Assembly: GCA_022709525.1 (NCBI GenBank)
Contig: JAKLIQ010000003.1
Span: 129,771 to 193,770 of the forward strand
Reading direction: 5' to 3'
Source: Candidatus Omnitrophota bacterium
GTDB lineage: Bacteria; Omnitrophota; Omnitrophia; Omnitrophales; Aquincolibacteriaceae
DNA length: 64,000 nt
A program made the translations under genes and the position numbers. This document shows, piece after piece, positions 1,400 through 55,816 of the stretch. The stretch's first letter is position 1. Every line of letters starts with the position of its first letter. Below the pieces are notes generated by a model. It was not told the DNA's origin. It saw nothing but the letters and a program-made list of their open reading frames with translations, and made no database searches.

Positions 1400-1492
1400 A
1401 CCCCGTTAGATCTTTGACGGGGCGGTGACCATTTCAACTAGCGCAGTTAAAATGGTTCATGACGAGTTATGAAATAGGAGATCTAACGGGGT
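1400..1492. repeat. Inverted-repeat mini-element copy A (ACCCCGTTAGATCT ... AGATCTAACGGGGT), no ORF
   Basis: 1401-1413 CCCCGTTAGATCT is the exact reverse complement of 1479-1491 AGATCTAACGGGG; same termini as copies at 8158, 34498, 55687. Confidence 0.6.
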
Positions 1493-3407
1493 GGAGATCA
1501 AACGGCTTAAAGTCAACACCCAGATCGGGATCGGGGAGCTCGAAGCGCTTTTGGCAGAGCTTCATTACCAGAAAAGAGAATATGTCGCTTTGCCGGGGGA
1601 GTTCGCCGTGCGGGGCGGCACAGTCGATATTTATCCCGTAACTTACCGCCTTCCAGTCCGGATCCAGCTCCACGGCGACACGTTGGCCCAGATCCGTGAT
1701 TTCTCGCCCGCTTCCGGCGAAAGCACCGCGGTCTTTGAAGAAGTCTTTCTGATCGAAGTCTCCGACCTTTTCCGCAAAAAACTCCGTCGCATGGAAGAAC
1801 GCCTCGAAACTTTCGAGCCCGTTGCCGGCACGAAAGACCTCGAACGCGGCGATCTCGTCGTCCATCTCAAGTACGGCATCGGCCGTTTTCTCGGCACCAA
1901 AGTCATCCAAATGCAAAAGGTGCGCACCCGCTGCATGGCGATCGAATATGCTGACCGCGAGATCCTCTATCTTTCCATGGAAGAACCCGTCGAGCGCTAC
2001 ATCGGCGGCTCCGGCGTTTCTCCGAAACTTACCAAACTCAACACCCAAGAATGGGAACGGATCAAACACCGGACGCGGACGGCGCTTCACAAAGTCGCCC
2101 AAGACCTGCTGCAGATCCAGGCCAAACGCAGTCTTCTGAAAGGCCTGGCTTTTCCCAAGGACACGCCGTGGCAGCGTGAATTCGAGGAGGAATTCCCGTT
2201 CGAAGAAACGCCGGGACAAAAACGCGCGATCGAGGAAGTTAAACGCGATATGGAATCCGACGGGCCCATGGACCGGCTGCTTTGCGGGGATGTGGGTTAC
2301 GGCAAAACCGAAGTCGCGATGCGGGCCGCCTTCAAAGCGGTCATGGGAGGCAAGCAGGCCGCGTTCCTGGTGCCGACCACGATCCTGGCCGAACAGCATT
2401 ATATTTTACTCAAAGACCGCACCAAAAACTTTCCGGCGTCGGTCGGCCTTCTTTCAAGATTTCAAACGCCGCGGGAGCAAAAAGCGATCGTCAAAGCGCT
2501 CCGGGAGGGTGCGATGGATATTGTGATCGGGACCCACCGCCTCCTTTCCAAAGACATCCAGTTCAAGGACCTCGGCCTTGTGATCATTGATGAGGAACAG
2601 CGTTTCGGCGTCCGCCATAAAGAAAAGCTCAAACAAATGCGCACGCAGGTGGACGTTCTGACGCTTACCGCCACGCCGATCCCGAGGACGCTCCATATGG
2701 CGCTTCTGGGGGTCCGGGATATGTCGGTGATCGATACGCCGCCGGAAAACCGGTTGCCGATCGAAACTTTTGTGATGGAATATCACGAGAATATCGTCAA
2801 ACAGGCCATCGAACGGGAACTTGTCCGCAAGGGGCAGGTCTATTTTGTCCACAACCGCGTCCAATCCATCGAGCGGGTCCATGAAAGACTCAAGAAACTT
2901 CTGCCCGCCGTCCGGTTCGGCGTGATGCACGGGCAGATGAAAGTCGAGATGCTCGAGGGCGTTATGAAACAGTTCCTTAAAGGGGAGATTGATTGCCTTA
3001 TTTCGACCAACATCGTGGAATCCGGCATTGATATCCCGAACGTGAATACTTTGATCGTGGACCGGGCCGATTGCTTTGGCTTGGCCGATCTTTACCAGCT
3101 GCGCGGACGGGTCGGGCGTTTCAAGGAAAAACGGCAGGCCTTCGCCTATTTTTTGATCCCGAAGAACTGGGTCATGACCCAGGACGCGCAGAAGCGGCTT
3201 CACGCCATCGAAAAATTCACGCAACTCGGCTCGGGATTCAAGATCGCGATGGAAGACCTTGAGATCCGCGGAACCGGGAACCTGCTCGGGCACGAGCAAA
3301 GCGGCTTTATCCAGGCCGTCGGGTTCGATCTCTACTGCAAAATGCTTAAAAAAGCGGTCGAAGAGCAGAAAAGCAGTAGCTCGGGACTCGGGACTCGATC
3401 TTTGTAA
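1491..3407 (+). CDS. mfd: Transcription-repair coupling factor Mfd, short form (638 aa; RID + translocase modules only)
   Basis: CarD/TRCF RNAP-interacting motif GDLVVHLKYGIGRFLG; SF2 helicase motifs LLCGDVGYGKTEVA, DEEQRFGV, TLTATPIPRTL; TRG-region IRGTGNLLGHEQSGF. GTG start lies inside right IR of copy A, AGGAG at 1476-1480. Confidence 0.8.
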   Translation: MEIKRLKVNTQIGIGELEALLAELHYQKREYVALPGEFAVRGGTVDIYPVTYRLPVRIQLHGDTLAQIRDFSPASGESTAVFEEVFLIEVSDLFRKKLRRMEERLETFEPVAGTKDLERGDLVVHLKYGIGRFLGTKVIQMQKVRTRCMAIEYADREILYLSMEEPVERYIGGSGVSPKLTKLNTQEWERIKHRTRTALHKVAQDLLQIQAKRSLLKGLAFPKDTPWQREFEEEFPFEETPGQKRAIEEVKRDMESDGPMDRLLCGDVGYGKTEVAMRAAFKAVMGGKQAAFLVPTTILAEQHYILLKDRTKNFPASVGLLSRFQTPREQKAIVKALREGAMDIVIGTHRLLSKDIQFKDLGLVIIDEEQRFGVRHKEKLKQMRTQVDVLTLTATPIPRTLHMALLGVRDMSVIDTPPENRLPIETFVMEYHENIVKQAIERELVRKGQVYFVHNRVQSIERVHERLKKLLPAVRFGVMHGQMKVEMLEGVMKQFLKGEIDCLISTNIVESGIDIPNVNTLIVDRADCFGLADLYQLRGRVGRFKEKRQAFAYFLIPKNWVMTQDAQKRLHAIEKFTQLGSGFKIAMEDLEIRGTGNLLGHEQSGFIQAVGFDLYCKMLKKAVEEQKSSSSGLGTRSL

Positions 3408-7416: not shown

Positions 7417-8115
7417 ATGCTGACTATTGTTCCGACGCCGATCGGCCATCTTTCAGATATCACGCTCCGGGCGCTCGAGGCCTTGAAGAGCGCGGATATG
7501 GTTCTTTGCGAGGACACGCGCCAGACACAGAAGCTTTTGCAGCATTATGGGATCGCGAAACCCCTTTTCAGCTATCACGAGCACAGTTCTGCGCGGAAGA
7601 CCGATGAGATCATTTCGCTTTTAAAGGAAGGAAAGCGCCTCGCGCTCGTTTCAGACGGTGGCACGCCGCTTGTCTCCGATCCGGGATTCCAAGCGGTTCA
7701 TGCGGCGATCGCGGAGGGATTGCCGCTTGAGGTATTGCCGGGTCCTTCGGCCGTCATGACAGCCCTTGTGGCAAGCGGTCTTCCGACCGACAGCTTCAGT
7801 TTTTTAGGGTTTCTTTCGAACAAGGGGCAGAAACGGAAAAACGAGCTCAAAGCGTTAGCGGAGCGGGAAGAAACGCTGATCTTTTTTGAATCGCCCTTTC
7901 GGATCGTCAAGGCATTAGAAGATATGTTCCATGTTTTAGGGGATCGCGAAGCCGCGGTCGCGCGGGAACTTACAAAAAAATTCGAGGAGATCCTCCGCGG
8001 GCCTTTGTCGGAGCTGATACAGGATATGATAAAAAAACCGCGCAAAGGTGAAATGGTGGTGTTGGTAGCCGGCAAGGACCGGAAGAGCGTTTTGCCGAAA
8101 AGGAGCCAAGCATGA
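7417..8115 (+). CDS. rsmI: 16S rRNA 2'-O-ribose C1402 methyltransferase RsmI (tetrapyrrole-methylase fold)
   Basis: MLTIVPTPIGHLSDITLRALEALKSADMVLCEDTRQTQKLL N-terminus typical of RsmI. Confidence 0.8.
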   Translation: MLTIVPTPIGHLSDITLRALEALKSADMVLCEDTRQTQKLLQHYGIAKPLFSYHEHSSARKTDEIISLLKEGKRLALVSDGGTPLVSDPGFQAVHAAIAEGLPLEVLPGPSAVMTALVASGLPTDSFSFLGFLSNKGQKRKNELKALAEREETLIFFESPFRIVKALEDMFHVLGDREAAVARELTKKFEEILRGPLSELIQDMIKKPRKGEMVVLVAGKDRKSVLPKRSQA

Positions 8116-8174
8116 AACGGATCGCTTTTTTAGTGTCCGGCAGCGGGACGAATATGGACCCCGTTAGAGATTGA
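8112..8174 (+). pseudogene. purN: Orphaned original 5' end of purN (MKRIAFLVSGSGTNM + DPVRD*), cut off by element insertion
   Basis: ATG overlaps rsmI stop (ATGA); 13/15 aa identical to start of intact purN at 8446; frame runs into left IR and stops at TGA 8172-8174. Confidence 0.55.
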
Positions 8175-8438
8175 GTGTGATGTATTACACTTATGTTTTG
8201 AGAAGTAAAAAGGATGGTCGATTGTACACAGGTTATGCTTCAGATTTACAGAAGCGCTTCAAACAACATAATGCTGGTGAAGTGCCCGCCACTAAATTCA
8301 GGAGGCCTTTGGAACTCATTTACTGTGAAGCATGTGTTCGTGCGGAAGATGCCAGGGCAAGAGAAAGATACTTGAAAACTGGAATGGGGAAACGATATTT
8401 ACGGAATCGTTTGAAGCGCTTCTTATCTCTAACGGGGT
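8158..8438 (+). mobile_element. GIY-YIG-encoding element bounded by perfect 14-bp inverted repeats (ACCCCGTTAGAGAT / ATCTCTAACGGGGT)
   Basis: 8158-8171 and 8425-8438 are exact reverse complements; interior AT-rich vs host; interrupts purN; same termini found ORF-less at 4 other sites. Confidence 0.55.
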
Positions 8439-8449
8439 GGAAAACATGA
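8180..8449 (+). CDS. Small GIY-YIG nuclease-superfamily protein, YhbQ/UPF0213-like (89 aa)
   Basis: MYYTYVLRSKKDGRLYTGYASDLQKRFKQHN…YCEACVRAEDARARERYLK matches GIY…YTG…D…R…QH pattern of YhbQ family (from memory); ORF reads through right IR and stops at purN ATG. Confidence 0.75.
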   Translation: MYYTYVLRSKKDGRLYTGYASDLQKRFKQHNAGEVPATKFRRPLELIYCEACVRAEDARARERYLKTGMGKRYLRNRLKRFLSLTGWKT

Positions 8450-9024
8450 AACGCTTGGCATTTTTAGTTTCTGGAAACGGTACTAATATGGCGAATATCA
8501 TCGCTCGGATCAGGGCGGGCGAGATCTCCGCGGATCCTGCGATCGTGATCTCCAACAAGCCTGGCGCCAAGGCGCTGGAGAAGGCTTCGGCTCTTGGGGT
8601 CAAGACGGCGATGATCGATCATCAATCTTATGCCGATCGCGCGGCTTTTGATAAAGCGCTCGATCGATGCCTGGAAGAAAACAAGATCGACCTTGTGGTA
8701 CTGGCCGGGTTCATGCGCGTTTTGACCGAGGGGTTCGTAAGGAAATATTACGGGCGGCTTATCAATATCCACCCGGCGCTTTTACCGAAATTTCCCGGCG
8801 CTCATGCGATCAGGGACGCTTGGGAAGCGAAGGCAAAAGAGACCGGCGTGACGGTCCATTTTGTCGATACGGGCGTCGATACGGGCCCGCTTATCCTTCA
8901 GCGCAAGATCTCCATTCTTCCCAACGATACCCTGGAAACGCTCGAGACCCGCATCCATGAAGTCGAATACCAGCTTTATCCGGAAGCGCTCGACCTTGTT
9001 CTGAGAGGGAAAGCCAAACCCTAA
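8446..9024 (+). CDS. purN: Phosphoribosylglycinamide formyltransferase PurN (intact copy)
   Basis: MKRLAFLVSGNGTNM…, NIHPALLPKFPG, formyl transferase fold; first 45 nt AT3-rich unlike rest of gene. Confidence 0.85.
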   Translation: MKRLAFLVSGNGTNMANIIARIRAGEISADPAIVISNKPGAKALEKASALGVKTAMIDHQSYADRAAFDKALDRCLEENKIDLVVLAGFMRVLTEGFVRKYYGRLINIHPALLPKFPGAHAIRDAWEAKAKETGVTVHFVDTGVDTGPLILQRKISILPNDTLETLETRIHEVEYQLYPEALDLVLRGKAKP

Positions 9025-34497: not shown

Positions 34498-34562
34498 ACC
34501 CTGTTAGAAACACGAAATATTTTAAAAAGGAAAAATACGATGCACTCCGTCTCTAACAGGGT
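34498..34562. repeat. Inverted-repeat mini-element copy C (ACCCTGTTAGAAAC…GTCTCTAACAGGGT)
   Basis: 13/14 complementary termini, 37-bp AT-rich interior, lies exactly between stop 34497 and GTG start 34561. Confidence 0.5.
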
Positions 34563-35589
34563 GAAGATCCTCGCGGTGATGAAAAATTGGCTCGGAGACC
34601 TTCTTTTCCAGATGCCGGCTCTTGATCTTATTAAACAAAAATATCCGGAGGCCCGGATCACTTGTATCGCCCCCGAACGCTGCCGGGAGATCCTAGAGGC
34701 GCATCCCGCCGTTTCGGATTTTTTGAGCTTTGACGAAAAGGGCGTTCACCGCTCGTGGTTCGCGAGAATAAAATTCCTTTTAGAGCTAAGAAAGAAAGGC
34801 CCTTGGGATCAAGGATATCTTTTCCACAGGTCCCGGAGCCGCGCGCTTTTACTTTTGCTTGCCGGCGTTAAGGAGCGGATCGGTTACAGCCGCGGGAGAA
34901 GGATTTTTTTAAACCGCCCGCTGATCGAGCCTGCGAAACCGATGCATCAACTGGATTATTTTTTTCACTTCATGAAGGAAGCCGGTTTCGAGCTTCCAGG
35001 CGAAAAGACATACCGGTTCTTTTTAAAGCCAGAGGATGAAAAAGAGGCTGCTAAAGCGCTGGAGTCCTCGGAGATTCGAGCCGGAGAAAGATATCTCTGT
35101 TTTCATCTCGGAGCGAATTGGGGCCCCAAGCGCTGGCCTTGCGGCCATTTTGCGGCGCTTGCCGATAAGATCGCGGAAAAAATGCGCGTTCCTATCGTTG
35201 TGACAGGCGCCGCAGGCGACGTGTCTCTTTGGGAGTCTTTCCGTTCTCAAGTTCGGCGCGCAAAAACCGTTTCTCTTATAGGAAAAACCGGGCTACGCGC
35301 GTCCGCAGCGGTCTATAAACGCGCGATCTGTCTTGTGACCGGCGATTCGGGGCCTATGCATATCGCATCCGGGGTCGGAGCTTCCGTCGTGGCGCTTTTT
35401 GGCCCGACCGATCCGAAACTGACCGGTCCGCGGGGAACGGGCGATAGTATTGTGCTACAATACGTTCCACCCGGTCATTCCACCCCATTTTTTGGCGAAG
35501 AAAAAGATCTTCCGGAAGGGGGATGGCTTGCTAAAATATCGCCCGATCAGGTCTTGGAGGCGGTCGAAAGGATCTTGAAAAAAGTATGA
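34561..35589 (+). CDS. ADP-heptose:LPS heptosyltransferase family (GT9)
   Basis: VKILAVMKNWLGDLLFQMPAL…GDSGPMHIASGVG; GTG start inside right IR (34540 start rejected). Confidence 0.7.
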   Translation: MKILAVMKNWLGDLLFQMPALDLIKQKYPEARITCIAPERCREILEAHPAVSDFLSFDEKGVHRSWFARIKFLLELRKKGPWDQGYLFHRSRSRALLLLLAGVKERIGYSRGRRIFLNRPLIEPAKPMHQLDYFFHFMKEAGFELPGEKTYRFFLKPEDEKEAAKALESSEIRAGERYLCFHLGANWGPKRWPCGHFAALADKIAEKMRVPIVVTGAAGDVSLWESFRSQVRRAKTVSLIGKTGLRASAAVYKRAICLVTGDSGPMHIASGVGASVVALFGPTDPKLTGPRGTGDSIVLQYVPPGHSTPFFGEEKDLPEGGWLAKISPDQVLEAVERILKKV

Positions 35590-54714: not shown

Positions 54715-55703
54715 TGGAAGCTTATCTTAAAGATCTGGGTCCTCAGATCGTCAAAGCCCGCGCGATCGCCGCCGGCATCAGTCTTTCCCCGTCTTTCATC
54801 AAACGGCCCGCGAAGGTCCTCTATTGCGGGATGGGCGGATCCGCCATTAGCGGCGACATTCTCGGAACGATCGCTCAAAGCCGTTCCCGTATCCATTGGA
54901 CCGTGAACCGCACTTCGCGCCTTCCCGAATGGGTCGACTCCAAAACGATCGTGATCCTTTCCAGTTATTCCGGCAACACTCATGAGGTCCGGTCGATCTT
55001 TGAACAGGCTGTGGCGCGAAAGGCCCATTTTCTGGTGGTAGCTTCCGGGGGATGGCTTGCGGAGGAAGCGTTAAAAAGGAAGATCCCGTTCTTCCGCCTG
55101 CCGCAGGGTTATCCGCCGCGGTTCGCGATCGGCTATACGACCTTTTCGCTTCTTTTTCTTTTCATGCGTTACAAATGGTTCTCGGTCTCCGGAAAAGAGA
55201 TCCAGGAAGTGATCCGGGCCGTGAAACGCTTTCCTCAAAAAGAAGCCCACCGCCTTGCCAAACGGCTTTTTGAAAAAAATATTGCGATCTACGGGGGCGG
55301 CCTCATGCAATCGGCCGCTTTGCGGTGGCGCACCCAATTGGCGGAAAATGCGAAAACACTCGCTTCCTGCGAAGCGTTGCCCGAAATGTTCCACCATGAG
55401 ATCGAAGGATGGACCTTCCCGGTTTTTAAGGTCAAAAATTCCGTCGCGATCTTCTTGACGGACCGGAATGAACCGGACTGGCTTTTAAAGAAAAAACAAG
55501 TGGCCATGAAAGTGATCCGCGAAGGCGGCGCCGAGACGATCGAACTGAAGACGGCCGGCCAAGGGGCCCTGGCCCGTATTTTTTCCATGATCCTGCTCGG
55601 CGATTGGACAAGCTGTGAGCTTGCGAAGCTCTGCAAGGTCGATCCGATGTCGATCGGGGCGATCGATCGCATCAAAAAGGCGGTTCACCCCGTTAGAGAC
55701 TAA
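54714..55703 (+). CDS. SIS-domain bifunctional phosphoglucose/phosphomannose isomerase family protein
   Basis: VLYCGMGGSAISGDILGT; last residues HPVRD* encoded by left IR of copy D. Confidence 0.6.
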   Translation: MEAYLKDLGPQIVKARAIAAGISLSPSFIKRPAKVLYCGMGGSAISGDILGTIAQSRSRIHWTVNRTSRLPEWVDSKTIVILSSYSGNTHEVRSIFEQAVARKAHFLVVASGGWLAEEALKRKIPFFRLPQGYPPRFAIGYTTFSLLFLFMRYKWFSVSGKEIQEVIRAVKRFPQKEAHRLAKRLFEKNIAIYGGGLMQSAALRWRTQLAENAKTLASCEALPEMFHHEIEGWTFPVFKVKNSVAIFLTDRNEPDWLLKKKQVAMKVIREGGAETIELKTAGQGALARIFSMILLGDWTSCELAKLCKVDPMSIGAIDRIKKAVHPVRD

Positions 55704-55816
55704 CAGGGGAACGCTTTGTGATTTTTTGAGATGAAAAAGATGGGATCTCTGAAGAAACTCTTCAATCATTATTTAACGGAAGCGCCCGAAAAGGCGCTTC
55801 CTGTCTCTAACGGGGT
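55687..55816. repeat. Inverted-repeat mini-element copy D (ACCCCGTTAGAGAC…GTCTCTAACGGGGT)
   Basis: Perfect 14-bp reverse-complement termini 55687-55700 / 55803-55816; interior has strong hairpin GAAGCGCC-cgaaaa-GGCGCTTC and a 31-codon ORF. Confidence 0.55.

What the first reader, a model, noticed from the sequence alone, without database searches (positions are those of the whole stretch)
8112..8490. GIY-YIG gene flanked by perfect 14-bp inverted repeats, inserted 15 codons into purN and followed by a foreign-looking replacement copy of the purN 5' end
Seen in sequence: ACCCCGTTAGAGAT (8158-8171) and ATCTCTAACGGGGT (8425-8438) are exact reverse complements. Between them is an 89-codon ORF whose product (MYYTYVLRSKKDGRLYTGYASDLQKRFKQHN…) has the GIY…YTG…D…R…QH pattern of the YhbQ/UPF0213 small GIY-YIG nucleases. 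The interval 8171 to about 8490 is conspicuously AT-rich against a GC-rich, GATC-rich host. Immediately upstream, an ATG overlapping the rsmI stop (ATGA, the usual coupling arrangement) encodes MKRIAFLVSGSGTNM and then runs into the left IR (DPVRD*). The intact purN begins 8 bp after the right IR with MKRLAFLVSGNGTNM. The two 45-nt segments are 35/45 identical. The upstream copy is G/C-rich at third codon positions like the host, and the downstream functional copy is A/T-rich at third positions like the element. Inference: the element inserted after codon 15 of purN and brought its own copy of the first 15 purN codons plus an SD (GGGGTGGA inside the right IR), restoring the gene. This is conceptually like SXT/R391 restoring prfC, but here the only encoded protein is a minimal GIY-YIG domain. 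A GIY-YIG-only, TIR-bounded, target-restoring element of this kind is not something I recognise as described.
Basis: partly seen in the sequence, partly recalled or inferred. Interest (0 to 1): 0.85.

Follow-up and report, generated by a model that had tools for sequence, protein, structure and literature searches.

The report
Mini GIY-YIG hairpin mobile element
A 280-bp selfish DNA element that encodes only a tiny nuclease and folds into one long hairpin sits 15 codons into a purine-synthesis gene, which was patched with a borrowed copy of its own start. The same element family is scattered across many uncultivated bacterial phyla, and I found no description of it as mobile.

Summary

**What the element is.** Window 8158-8438 is an intact member of a large family, with at least 520 hits in species-representative genomes of more than 10 phyla.
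- Each member is an 86-89-aa single-domain GIY-YIG gene embedded in a split hairpin.
- The hairpin has a 13-14-bp terminal inverted repeat and a 14-bp inner stem made of coding sequence. Both stems covary.
- Three ORF-less derivatives lie in the same window.

**Evidence for insertion.**
- Relatives have rsmI running directly into purN, which is an empty site.
- A second empty/filled pair shows a 4-bp duplication (TGAA).
- Insertions are sense-oriented at gene junctions. The left arm supplies stop codons and the right arm supplies an SD or start codon.

**The duplicated purN 5' end.** It is real and imported from a diverged allele. Such patches flank only about 6% of copies, and in two loci they lie beyond residual target bases. 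They therefore look like repair patches, not cargo.

**Closest known system.** This is the Ssn/NTS system (single-domain GIY-YIG ssDNA nucleases flanked by hairpin repeats, 2025). This family has a different protein subfamily, a different repeat and a different architecture, and it adds direct evidence of mobility.

**Verdict.** It is a new variant of a known kind and of high interest.

The parts
7417..8115 (+). rsmI (TP_methylase). Its stop codon TGA overlaps the ATG of the purN stub (ATGA).
8112..8174 (+). Stub ORF MKRIAFLVSGSGTNM-DPVRD*. Positions 8112-8157 are the displaced original first 15 codons (+1 nt) of purN. The ORF ends at a TGA just past the left arm.
   Evidence: empty-site relatives; GC3 0.67
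8155..8158 (.). Left copy of the TGGA direct repeat that flanks the covarying core.
8158..8171 (+). Left arm of the terminal inverted repeat (outer stem).
8180..8449 (+). GIY-YIG nuclease ORF of 89 aa. All family-invariant residues are present. It reads through the right arm, and its stop overlaps the purN ATG.
8250..8264 (+). 5' arm of the inner stem (codons for QKRFK).
8409..8423 (+). 3' arm of the inner stem (codons for RLKRF). It lies 1 nt before the right terminal arm.
8425..8438 (+). Right arm of the terminal inverted repeat. It encodes S-L-T-G, and its GGGG(TGGA) serves as the Shine-Dalgarno sequence for purN.
8438..8441 (.). Right copy of the TGGA direct repeat.
8442..8491 (+). Imported patch: AAAC plus the first 15 codons (+1 nt) of a diverged purN allele. 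GC3 is 0.33, and the closest match is the relative L094 (40/45).
8446..9024 (+). Functional purN. It is host-like from codon 16 onward.
1400..1492 (+). ORF-less element with the same termini (ACCCCGTTAGATCT / AGATCTAACGGGGT). The GTG start of the downstream mfd-like ORF lies in its right arm.
34498..34562 (+). ORF-less element inserted in the ATGA stop/start overlap of two GT9 genes, flanked by TGAA on each side. It supplies a GTG start.
   Evidence: empty site L170 and second filled site L171
55687..55816 (+). Internally deleted derivative of a GIY-YIG element. It keeps the 5' region and an inner hairpin (55778-55801) 1 nt before the right arm. The upstream ORF ends HPVRD* in the left arm.

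Best explanation
Window 8158-8438 is an intact copy of a widespread family of about 280-bp selfish elements. Each is a single-domain GIY-YIG nuclease gene built into one long split hairpin. The hairpin has a 13-14-bp terminal stem and a 14-bp inner stem formed by two KRF-coding stretches of the gene.

**Shown**
- The family and its ORF-less derivatives are insertions. Empty sites exist for both tested loci.
- Insertions carry 3-4-bp direct repeats of consensus T-N-N-A.
- They lie in sense orientation at gene junctions. The left arm supplies stop codons and the right arm supplies an SD or start codon.
- Both stems are maintained by compensatory changes.
- The ORF is under purifying selection.

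**Inferred**
- The nuclease probably recognises the folded hairpin on single-stranded DNA and nicks at its base, with host replication or repair doing the copying and joining. This rests on analogy with Ssn, the only characterised single-domain GIY-YIG nucleases flanked by hairpin repeats. It also rests on the Slx1/UPF0213-like fold of the protein.
- At purN the element interrupted the gene after codon 15.
- Function was then restored by a patch of about 50 nt (4 nt plus codons 1-15). The patch was copied from a purN allele of another lineage during break repair. The right junction is at the break and the left junction uses TGG microhomology.
- The original 15 codons remain as a stub coupled to rsmI.
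- Elements flanked by diverged repeats persist because identical repeats would recombine and delete the element.
For: **Family**
- There are 1386 homologues, and the top 120 listed are 66-79% identical.
- At least 520 hits occur in species-representative genomes. The phyla include Patescibacteria, Omnitrophota, Planctomycetota, Thermodesulfobacteriota, Nitrospirota and Clostridia.
- The same IR brackets the ORF in 75 of about 80 loci, and 28 ORF-less copies are present.

**Structure**
- The outer stem is 99.3% paired. Pair 5-295 is CG40/UA23/GC3 and pair 17-282 is UA42/CG15/AU11.
- The inner stem is 90% paired, with compensatory synonymous changes such as AU40/GC22/CG4 and CG28/UA24/GC9.
- 0 of 500 shuffles reach the observed values on four of the five measures and 1 of 500 on the fifth. 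Slid controls are 30-49% paired.
- RNAalifold finds the same helices.
- The ssDNA fold gives z=-3.84.
- ORF-less copies keep a hairpin next to the right arm.

**Insertion**
- purN empty sites are.
- The GT9 empty site reads CATGAAGATC and the filled site reads CATGAA[core]TGAAGATC.
- 4-nt direct repeats occur 27 times against 7.1+/-2.2 expected, and 3-nt repeats 16 times against 6.3.

**Gene-boundary features**
- The downstream gene is co-directional in 58 of 64 cases.
- 25 of 95 start codons span the right junction, and 11 upstream ORFs stop at the TAG in the left arm.

**ORF and protein**
- 64 of 71 ORFs are intact, and column entropy by codon position is 0.64/0.46/1.32.
- The model has pLDDT 92.5. 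The nearest structures are UPF0213 BH0048 and then Slx1.

**Ssn precedent**
- PMC11893778.

**Patch**
-.
- An independent parallel is L177, where the stub MNILVVTLSNFGDVILTTP faces the functional MNILVITLSNFGDVILTTP.
- L029 shows the mirror image at a gene 3' end.
- L019 and L051 show the element inside the stub.
Against: - No biochemistry exists, and nothing shows that this nuclease is what moves the element.
- GIY-YIG enzymes are hydrolytic and form no covalent intermediate, so the joining step is unexplained.
- Known GIY-YIG enzymes leave 1-2-nt 3' overhangs, not a 4-nt stagger (my own knowledge).
- Only 27% of flanks are exact 4-nt repeats. The commonest flank pairs are non-identical (TTTA...TGAA and TTCA...TAAA).
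- The four window elements differ at inner IR positions, so there has been no recent burst here.
- G.T versus A.C mismatches (35 versus 22) do not identify the active strand or distinguish DNA from RNA.
- W and L019 share both junctions, yet the W stub is undecayed and the L019 stub is decayed. One event versus two is unresolved.
- No donor allele for the patch was found.
Confidence: 0.6

Rival explanations
1. This is a domesticated Ssn/REP-RAYT-like host system. A resident hairpin-specific nuclease and its dispersed hairpins would serve the host, for example by restricting or shaping recombination of incoming ssDNA. They would no longer be selfish or mobile.
For: - The Ssn precedent and its authors' domestication hypothesis.
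- Only one ORF-bearing copy occurs in 64 kb.
- The window's ORF-less copies are diverged from one another.
- Insertion positions are harmless to neighbouring genes.
Against: - Protein identity is 63-79% across unrelated phyla.
- Presence and absence differ at orthologous sites.
- 7 of 71 ORFs are dead or lack a start codon.
- Tandem and internally deleted copies occur.
- Insertions lie inside coding regions that then needed patching.
Confidence: 0.2
2. These are ordinary MITEs moved in trans by an unrelated (for example DDE) transposase, and the GIY-YIG gene is a passenger.
For: Terminal inverted repeats plus a 4-bp duplication are typical of DDE elements (my own knowledge).
Against: - No larger element with these termini was found in 689 kb scanned.
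- The right terminus is inside the GIY-YIG ORF.
- The inner stem is coding sequence kept paired by synonymous compensatory changes.
- ORF-less copies are deletion derivatives of the ORF-bearing one.
- The gene-repeat association holds across more than 10 phyla.
Confidence: 0.08
3. The conserved stems act mainly in the mRNA, for example as an RNase III site, a stabiliser, or a device that couples translation of neighbouring cistrons.
For: - Sense orientation in 85-91% of cases.
- The right arm acts as SD or start, and stop/start overlaps are common.
- The stems would also form in RNA.
Against: - This does not explain the insertions, the duplications or the spread.
- No Rfam family matches.
- There is no significant excess of G.U over A.C mismatches.
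- SsnA does not bind RNA.
- This role could coexist with a DNA-level role.
Confidence: 0.1
4. This is a classical free-standing GIY-YIG homing endonuclease gene. It would spread only between alleles by double-strand-break repair, with co-conversion of the flanks.
For: - Presence and absence differ at orthologous sites.
- The same site inside ORF6N-family genes is occupied in several phyla.
- Imported flanking gene ends occur.
Against: - There is no DNA-binding domain. The protein is 86 aa of catalytic fold plus one helix.
- Dozens of unrelated insertion sites are used.
- Short target duplications occur.
- ORF-less derivatives are abundant.
- The purN site is still intact in the occupied allele.
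Confidence: 0.12
5. This is the first reader's model: an integrative element that carries the target's 5' end as cargo, in the style of SXT/prfC.
For: The window and L177 show an element followed by a diverged replacement 5' end.
Against: - About 93% of copies have no such segment.
- The segment lies outside the covarying termini.
- In L019 and L051 residual target bases separate it from the element.
- L029 duplicates a 3' end on the other side.
- There is no recombinase.
Confidence: 0.07

Closest known systems
Ssn / NTS (SRM) system: single-domain GIY-YIG site-specific ssDNA nucleases (CDD cd10448), Chenal et al., Nat Commun 2025 (PMC11893778)
   Same: - The nuclease is about 90 aa and consists of the GIY-YIG domain only.
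- The gene is bracketed by inverted hairpin-forming repeats.
- Many ORF-less repeat copies lie in intergenic DNA.
- The hairpin can be re-formed from two separate halves.
- The authors themselves noted the IS-like and REP/RAYT-like architecture.
- The N. gonorrhoeae locus I retrieved has an NTS directly after the stop codon and an inverted NTS upstream.
   Different: - Identity to N. gonorrhoeae SsnA is only 33% over 64 aa, and the C-terminal 20 aa are unrelated. The nearest solved relatives are UPF0213 and Slx1.
- The published SRM motif matches none of the window elements.
- Here the two flanking repeats are half-sites of one hairpin that encloses the gene.
- The right half and the inner stem are coding sequence.
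- This work has direct evidence of insertion: empty sites, 4-bp duplication and deletion derivatives. None is reported for Ssn in the sections I read.
- The hosts are mostly uncultivated phyla.
REP / RAYT (REPIN) systems and IS200/IS605
   Same: A small nuclease gene is flanked by inverted palindromic repeats with dispersed non-autonomous copies. By inference, recognition is of hairpins on single-stranded DNA, and the subterminal hairpin lies next to one end.
   Different: - The enzyme here is a GIY-YIG hydrolase, not an HUH/Y1 transposase with a covalent intermediate.
- True terminal inverted repeats and short target duplications are present here.
- Distribution here is horizontal across phyla, whereas RAYTs are vertically inherited single copies.
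Free-standing GIY-YIG homing endonucleases (T4 Seg proteins, I-TevI family)
   Same: They share the GIY-YIG catalytic fold. Presence and absence differ at orthologous sites, and flanking sequence from a donor is co-inherited.
   Different: This element has no DNA-binding domain. It has terminal repeats, target duplications, ORF-less derivatives and dozens of unrelated sites.
Gene-proximal bacterial MITEs and in-gene palindromic elements (Neisseria Correia elements, Rickettsia palindromic elements)
   Same: These are short IR-bounded or palindromic elements at gene boundaries or read through in-frame. Compare the heptosyltransferase homologues beginning MNPVSG..., which read through the element.
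   Different: Those families have no GIY-YIG-encoding full-length member described with them. This comparison rests on my own knowledge and was not tested here.
UPF0213 / YhbQ / YazA small GIY-YIG proteins
   Same: These are the closest relatives by sequence and fold: BH0048 1ZG2 at E=3.6e-10 and YazA at 42% identity.
   Different: As I recall, those are single-copy genes at fixed loci without these repeats; this was not tested here. This family has a distinct C-terminus, K(T/S)GMGKRYLKNRLKRFLSLTG, that doubles as the right end of the element.

Membership tests
Ssn nuclease family (cd10448) | Single-domain GIY-YIG protein of about 90-100 aa | tested here: met
   The protein is 86-89 aa. Pfam finds GIY-YIG only. 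The model shows the GIY-YIG fold plus one C-terminal helix.
Ssn nuclease family (cd10448) | Homology to N. meningitidis SsnA at the paper's working threshold (E<1e-10), or assignment to CDD cd10448 | tested here: inconclusive
   Against N. gonorrhoeae SsnA, identity is 33% over 64 aa with pairwise E=2e-9. hhalign gives 95.9% probability over residues 4-68 only. The database-wide tblastn E-value is 5. CDD is not available here.
Ssn nuclease family (cd10448) | Gene flanked by SRM repeats (HGTCWY...hairpin...RNCYNB) | tested here: not met
   The published degenerate motif has 0 matches in or beside any of the four window elements, and 1 chance hit elsewhere.
Ssn nuclease family (cd10448) | Hairpin-forming inverted repeats on both sides of the gene, and many ORF-less copies in the genome | tested here: met
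   The difference is that the two sides form one hairpin together.
Ssn nuclease family (cd10448) | Strand-specific cleavage of ssDNA next to the hairpin, with no activity on dsDNA or RNA | not testable with these tools
   This needs purified protein.
Transposable element with non-autonomous derivatives (IS/MITE sense) | Terminal inverted repeats | tested here: met
   13-14 bp, 99.3% paired across 71 copies.
Transposable element with non-autonomous derivatives (IS/MITE sense) | Target-site duplication shown by empty versus filled sites | tested here: met
   TGAA occurs once in L170 and twice in the window and in L171. Exact 4-nt repeats occur 27 times against 7.1 expected. Only 27% of flanks are exact.
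Transposable element with non-autonomous derivatives (IS/MITE sense) | Encodes a transposase of a known class (DDE, DEDD, HUH, Ser, Tyr, Cas1) | tested here: not met
   The only ORF is GIY-YIG. No larger element with the same ends was found.
Transposable element with non-autonomous derivatives (IS/MITE sense) | Internally deleted copies that keep the ends | tested here: met
   L005 1763-1910 and window 55687-55816.
Free-standing GIY-YIG homing endonuclease | GIY-YIG domain joined to a DNA-binding domain | tested here: not met
   There is no second domain.
Free-standing GIY-YIG homing endonuclease | Occupied and empty alleles at the same locus, with donor flanks co-inherited | tested here: met
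UPF0213 / YhbQ housekeeping protein | Sequence and fold similarity to UPF0213 proteins | tested here: met
   1ZG2 at E=3.6e-10. It is also the Foldseek top hit.
UPF0213 / YhbQ housekeeping protein | Conserved single-copy gene at a fixed genomic position | tested here: not met
   The gene is absent from the rsmI-purN junction of relatives and sits in dozens of different contexts.
Integrative element that restores its target gene (SXT/prfC type) | Site-specific recombinase, and a gene-end copy carried as a constant part of the element | tested here: not met
   There is no recombinase. A flank copy is present in about 6-7% of elements and lies outside the termini.

The most novel reading that the evidence does not exclude
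This may be a new class of prokaryotic transposable element. Its only protein would be an 86-aa GIY-YIG nuclease that acts on its own folded single-stranded hairpin. Its cis-acting structure is written into its coding sequence. It spreads across more than 10 bacterial phyla, inserts at operon junctions while supplying stop and start signals, and occasionally triggers patch repair of the genes it interrupts. It would stand as an independent analogue of IS200/IS605 and REP/RAYT built on a different nuclease fold.
Probability: 0.45. Interest if true: 0.9.

Novelty: new variant of a known kind. Interest (0 to 1): 0.8.

Why it matters
- No insertion-sequence family that I know of is moved by a GIY-YIG nuclease. 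If this 86-aa enzyme mobilises its own hairpin, it adds a nuclease fold to the list of transposition chemistries. It would also be among the smallest autonomous mobile elements.
- It gives the newly described Ssn-type nucleases something they lacked: direct genomic evidence of mobility, in the form of empty sites, target duplications and deletion derivatives.
- It provides a second, very different protein/hairpin pair for ssDNA-cutting tools.
- The coding sequence doubles as a conserved nucleic-acid structure, which makes it a clean case of overlapping constraints.
- The recurrent patching of interrupted genes with diverged 5' or 3' ends is a distinctive repair footprint that can be searched for.
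- The element is common in Patescibacteria and Omnitrophota. Its read-through products and shifted start codons also matter for annotating those genomes.

Tried and rejected
- **Rfam** on 8050-8550 at E<=10 gave only noise.
- **The published SRM motif of Ssn repeats** does not match the elements.
- **Phage and plasmid collections** hold only YazA-like relatives at about 35-42% identity. IMG/VR holds 4 weaker relatives, so there is no obvious viral vector.
- **A larger element with the same termini** that might encode a conventional transposase was not found in 689 kb.
- **A nucleotide-level screen for flank duplications** found only the window. The protein-level screen was needed to find the others.
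- **G.T versus A.C mismatch counts**, tried as a test of RNA versus DNA or of the active strand, were not significant.
- **GC skew and gene-strand census** could not separate replication orientation from transcription orientation. About 50 of 53 long ORFs are on the + strand, so the test is uninformative.
- **AT-richness as proof of foreign origin** was rejected because empty-site relatives show it too.
- **In-situ duplication followed by drift** was rejected as the origin of the two purN copies. The stub has no amino-acid change from the consensus despite 22% nucleotide difference.
- **RNA splicing or ribosomal bypass of the element** was considered and dropped, because interrupted genes needed a DNA patch.
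- **An integron attC reading of GTTAGAG** was dropped, because the arm order is the reverse of attC.
- **PADLOC and NCBIfam** have no family for the protein.
- **Ten literature searches** found no description other than Ssn.
Full report
**1.
- The two 14-nt arms (8158-8171 and 8425-8438) are perfect reverse complements.
- The 89-codon ORF (8180-8449) is a GIY-YIG domain, Pfam E=2.9e-16.
- The ATG at 8112 overlaps the rsmI stop and encodes MKRIAFLVSGSGTNM before running into the left arm (DPVRD*).
- purN starts at 8446 with MKRLAFLVSGNGTNM.
- The two 45-nt copies are 35/45 identical, with GC3 0.67 and 0.33.
- The interval is AT-rich relative to its flanks.
- New details:
  - The ORF reads through the right arm, and its TGA overlaps the purN ATG.
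  - A second perfect 15-nt inverted repeat lies inside the element (8250-8264 and 8409-8423).
  - TGGA flanks the core on both sides.

**2. The termini belong to a repeat family in this window.**
- The arm sequence with up to 2 mismatches occurs 7 times against 0.28 expected. The hits form four convergent pairs.
- Besides the GIY-YIG copy there are three ORF-less elements: 1400-1492, 34498-34562 and 55687-55816.
- All three sit at gene boundaries:
  - An upstream ORF ends HPVRD* in a left arm.
  - GTG starts of an mfd-like gene and a GT9 gene lie in right arms.

**3. The family is very large.**
- The host is a Candidatus Omnitrophota MAG.
- The protein has 1386 detected homologues. The top 120 listed are typically 86 aa and 66-79% identical.
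The best 80 span the following taxa at 63-72% identity:
  - many Patescibacteria lineages
  - Omnitrophota
  - Planctomycetota
  - Thermodesulfobacteriota
  - Nitrospirota
  - Clostridia
  - Bdellovibrionales
  - Schekmanbacteria
- In 75 of these loci the ORF is bracketed by the same repeat. The left arm NCCCGTTAGAGA lies about 20 nt before the ATG. The right arm TCTCTAACGGGN forms the last codons (SLTG), and the stop codon lies just outside it.
- The same loci hold 28 short ORF-less elements. Some are plain internal deletions of a GIY-YIG copy, such as L005 1763-1910 and window 55687-55816.
- 64 of 71 full-length copies have intact ORFs. Column variability is concentrated at third codon positions (0.64/0.46/1.32).
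- The window copy has every family-invariant residue.

**4. A conserved two-stem structure overlaps the coding sequence.** This was tested on 71 aligned elements.
- The 13-bp outer stem is 99.3% paired, with covariation at its outer and inner ends.
- The 14-bp inner stem pairs codons around L-R-K-R-F with codons around R-L-K-R-F. It is 90% paired, with many compensatory synonymous changes.
- None of 500 shuffles reaches the observed values on four of the five measures, and 1 of 500 does on the fifth. Slid registers give 30-49% pairing.
- RNAalifold independently predicts the same helices.
- The window copy folds as ssDNA at -40.5 kcal/mol, z=-3.84.
- ORF-less copies keep a 7-10-bp hairpin 1-3 nt before the right arm.
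- The shortest copies (45-47 nt) are just this nested hairpin.
- Mismatch types do not reveal the active strand or distinguish DNA from RNA.

**5. These are insertions.**
- **purN.**
  - Five metagenomic relatives (70-76% PurN identity) have the rsmI 3' end running directly into the purN ATG, with no stub and no element. Two others also lack the element.
  - Removing 8158-8491 restores a purN collinear with theirs.
- **GT9 site.**
  - Most homologues of the downstream gene start MKI....
  - The empty site L170 reads ...CTCATGAAGATCC..., with the upstream stop and downstream start overlapping as ATGA.
  - The window reads ...ATCATGAA[CCCTG...CAGGG]TGAAGATCC.... L171 carries a different family member at the same place with the same TGAA on each side.
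  - The insertion therefore equals the core plus a 4-bp duplication. An equivalent reading is an element ending in TGAA that inserted 3' of a TGAA.
- **Flank statistics over 101 elements.**
  - Exact 4-nt direct repeats occur 27 times against 7.1+/-2.2 expected.
  - Exact 3-nt repeats occur 16 times against 6.3.
  - Exact 5-nt repeats never occur.
  - Flank consensus is T-(T/G)-N-A on the left and T-(G/A)-A-A on the right.

**6. The element has gene-friendly ends.**
- The downstream gene is co-directional in 58 of 64 cases and the upstream gene in 51 of 60.
- In 56 of 95 elements a long ORF starts within 40 nt of the right end.
- In 25 of those, the start codon is the last element base plus TG of the flank. 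In others it lies 5-8 nt after GGGG.
- 11 upstream ORFs stop at the TAG inside the left arm.
- One element sits between pgk and tpiA.
- Several lie at one identical point inside ORF6N-family genes in different phyla.

**7. The duplicated purN 5' end.**
- **It is exceptional.** At nucleotide level it scores 45 against a null 99th percentile of 21.
- **One copy is imported.**
  - The stub still encodes the exact family consensus.
  - 8 of the 10 differences are third-position changes.
  - The copies therefore diverged as functional genes in separate lineages, not by in-situ duplication and drift.
  - The downstream copy is closest to the relative L094 (40/45).
  - AT-richness by itself is not diagnostic, because L094 and L095 show it too.
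- **The pattern recurs.** A protein-level screen found six further significant cases among about 104 elements. One of them, L073, is an artefact, which leaves six real cases including the window.
  - L177 carries the closest homologue (79% identity). It has a 19-codon stub and a functional copy that differ by 1 aa but about 16 nt.
  - L019 is another Omnitrophota genome with the same purN arrangement, a decayed stub and a dead nuclease gene.
  - L029 is the mirror image at the 3' end of an upstream gene.
  - The other two real cases are L051 and L072. L031, at 38, is only marginally above the threshold.
- **The new copy is not cargo.** In L051 and L019 the element sits inside the stub with its own 3-4-nt repeat. 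A few residual target bases follow before the new copy begins.
- **My reading (inference).**
  - The element inserted into the 5' part of the gene.
  - A break beside it was then repaired from a diverged allele.
  - About 50-65 nt were copied and joined by microhomology.
  - Only versions with diverged repeats survive, because identical repeats would delete the element.
- **One event or two is unresolved.**
  - For a single event: W and L019 share both junctions, and a four-point test weakly pairs them.
  - Against a single event: the W stub is pristine and the L019 stub is decayed.

**8. Comparison with what is known.**
- Ten literature searches found no description of this element. The closest system is Ssn (PMC11893778):
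  - Ssn proteins are about 94-aa single-domain GIY-YIG nucleases (cd10448).
  - Their genes are flanked by hairpin repeats that also occur in hundreds of ORF-less copies.
  - SsnA binds the hairpin on one strand of ssDNA only and cuts just 5' of it.
  - It also works on a hairpin re-formed from two oligonucleotides.
  - The authors noted the IS-like layout and the REP/RAYT analogy and proposed domestication.
- I recovered the N. gonorrhoeae orthologue with its flanking NTS repeats.
- The window protein is 33% identical to it over 64 aa (pairwise E=2e-9) and has an unrelated C-terminus.
- By sequence and by predicted fold (pLDDT 92.5) the window protein is nearest to UPF0213 BH0048 and then to Slx1, a structure-specific nuclease.
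- The published SRM motif matches none of the elements.
- The element therefore works like Ssn/NTS, but I cannot file it as a member. The protein subfamily, the repeat and the architecture all differ, since here one split hairpin encloses the gene and partly consists of coding sequence.
- This work also has direct evidence of insertion, which the Ssn sections I read do not report.

**9. Verdict.**
- The finding is real.
- It is mechanistically different in one respect: the restoring copy is a repair patch, not cargo.
- That the nuclease mobilises the element through ssDNA hairpin recognition is inference, and the joining chemistry is unknown.

Noticed in passing
flanks of about 100 elements (L010-L089 and the window), positions -4..-1 and +1..+4: The commonest flank pairs are TTTA...TGAA and TTCA...TAAA. 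These pair as T.G or C.A at the second position from the stem. The perfectly complementary partners (TTTA...TAAA and TTCA...TGAA) were never seen. This looks like a conserved mismatch at the base of the hairpin, and its meaning is unknown.
   Followed up: partly
L020 1480-3005 (Nitrospirota MAG, CAVYLT010000096.1): Five IR-bounded elements, mostly ORF-less, are packed into about 1.5 kb next to a GIY-YIG copy. This local cluster is reminiscent of BIME/NTS clusters.
   Followed up: no
L013, L016, L023, L038, L043, L056, L078, L011 (match at about 2480-2760): The element lies at the same point inside ORF6N-family genes (...DAIRQL | element | MAPPE...) in Planctomycetota, Desulfobacterota-like and Schekmanbacteria genomes. 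This is either a preferred homing site or co-transfer with the ORF6N gene.
   Followed up: partly
P0127, P0134, P0167, P0176, P0179, P0196, P0208 (homologues of window 34561-35586): Heptosyltransferase homologues in other Omnitrophota have N-terminal extensions such as MNPVSGESVFGGQ.... These come from gene callers reading through an element inserted at the same start-codon site, so these hairpins distort the annotation of start codons.
   Followed up: partly
L179 100-600 (GCA_036705545.1): Two family members lie in tandem in the 3' region of an ORF6N-like gene. A diverged repeat of the C-terminal ...K(P/K)KRKIG(Y/F) segment lies on either side of the second element.
   Followed up: partly
L072 and L083 (same contig CAVZUR010000004.1, about 97 kb apart): Two GIY-YIG copies in one Moranbacteria contig have identical flanks (catcgcctcg | element | ctagctctat). 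This is either a segmental duplication or paralogous targets.
   Followed up: no
L092 700-798: In one purN relative, the rsmI-purN junction carries a different palindromic insertion of about 70 nt (CTAGTCGTCGGCCTCTAGTCTTTGGACTAGCGACTAGAGAC...) that is unrelated to the GIY-YIG family.
   Followed up: no
L172 1440-1800 (IMGVR_UViG_2871698510_000001): A viral or prophage contig carries a diverged family member (57% identity) with covarying arms TTTACCCCGTAGGATTT / AAATCCAACGGGGTGAATG.
   Followed up: partly
window 1491-3407: The mfd-like ORF is only 638 aa. As I recall, Mfd is usually about 1100-1200 aa, though this was not checked. Its only in-frame start is a GTG inside the right arm of the element at 1400-1492.
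   Followed up: no
NZ_CP119140.1 in the plasmid collection (L176): A 2.17-Mb Neisseria gonorrhoeae replicon is filed as a plasmid. This let me recover ssnA, but it looks like a mislabelled chromosome.
   Followed up: no
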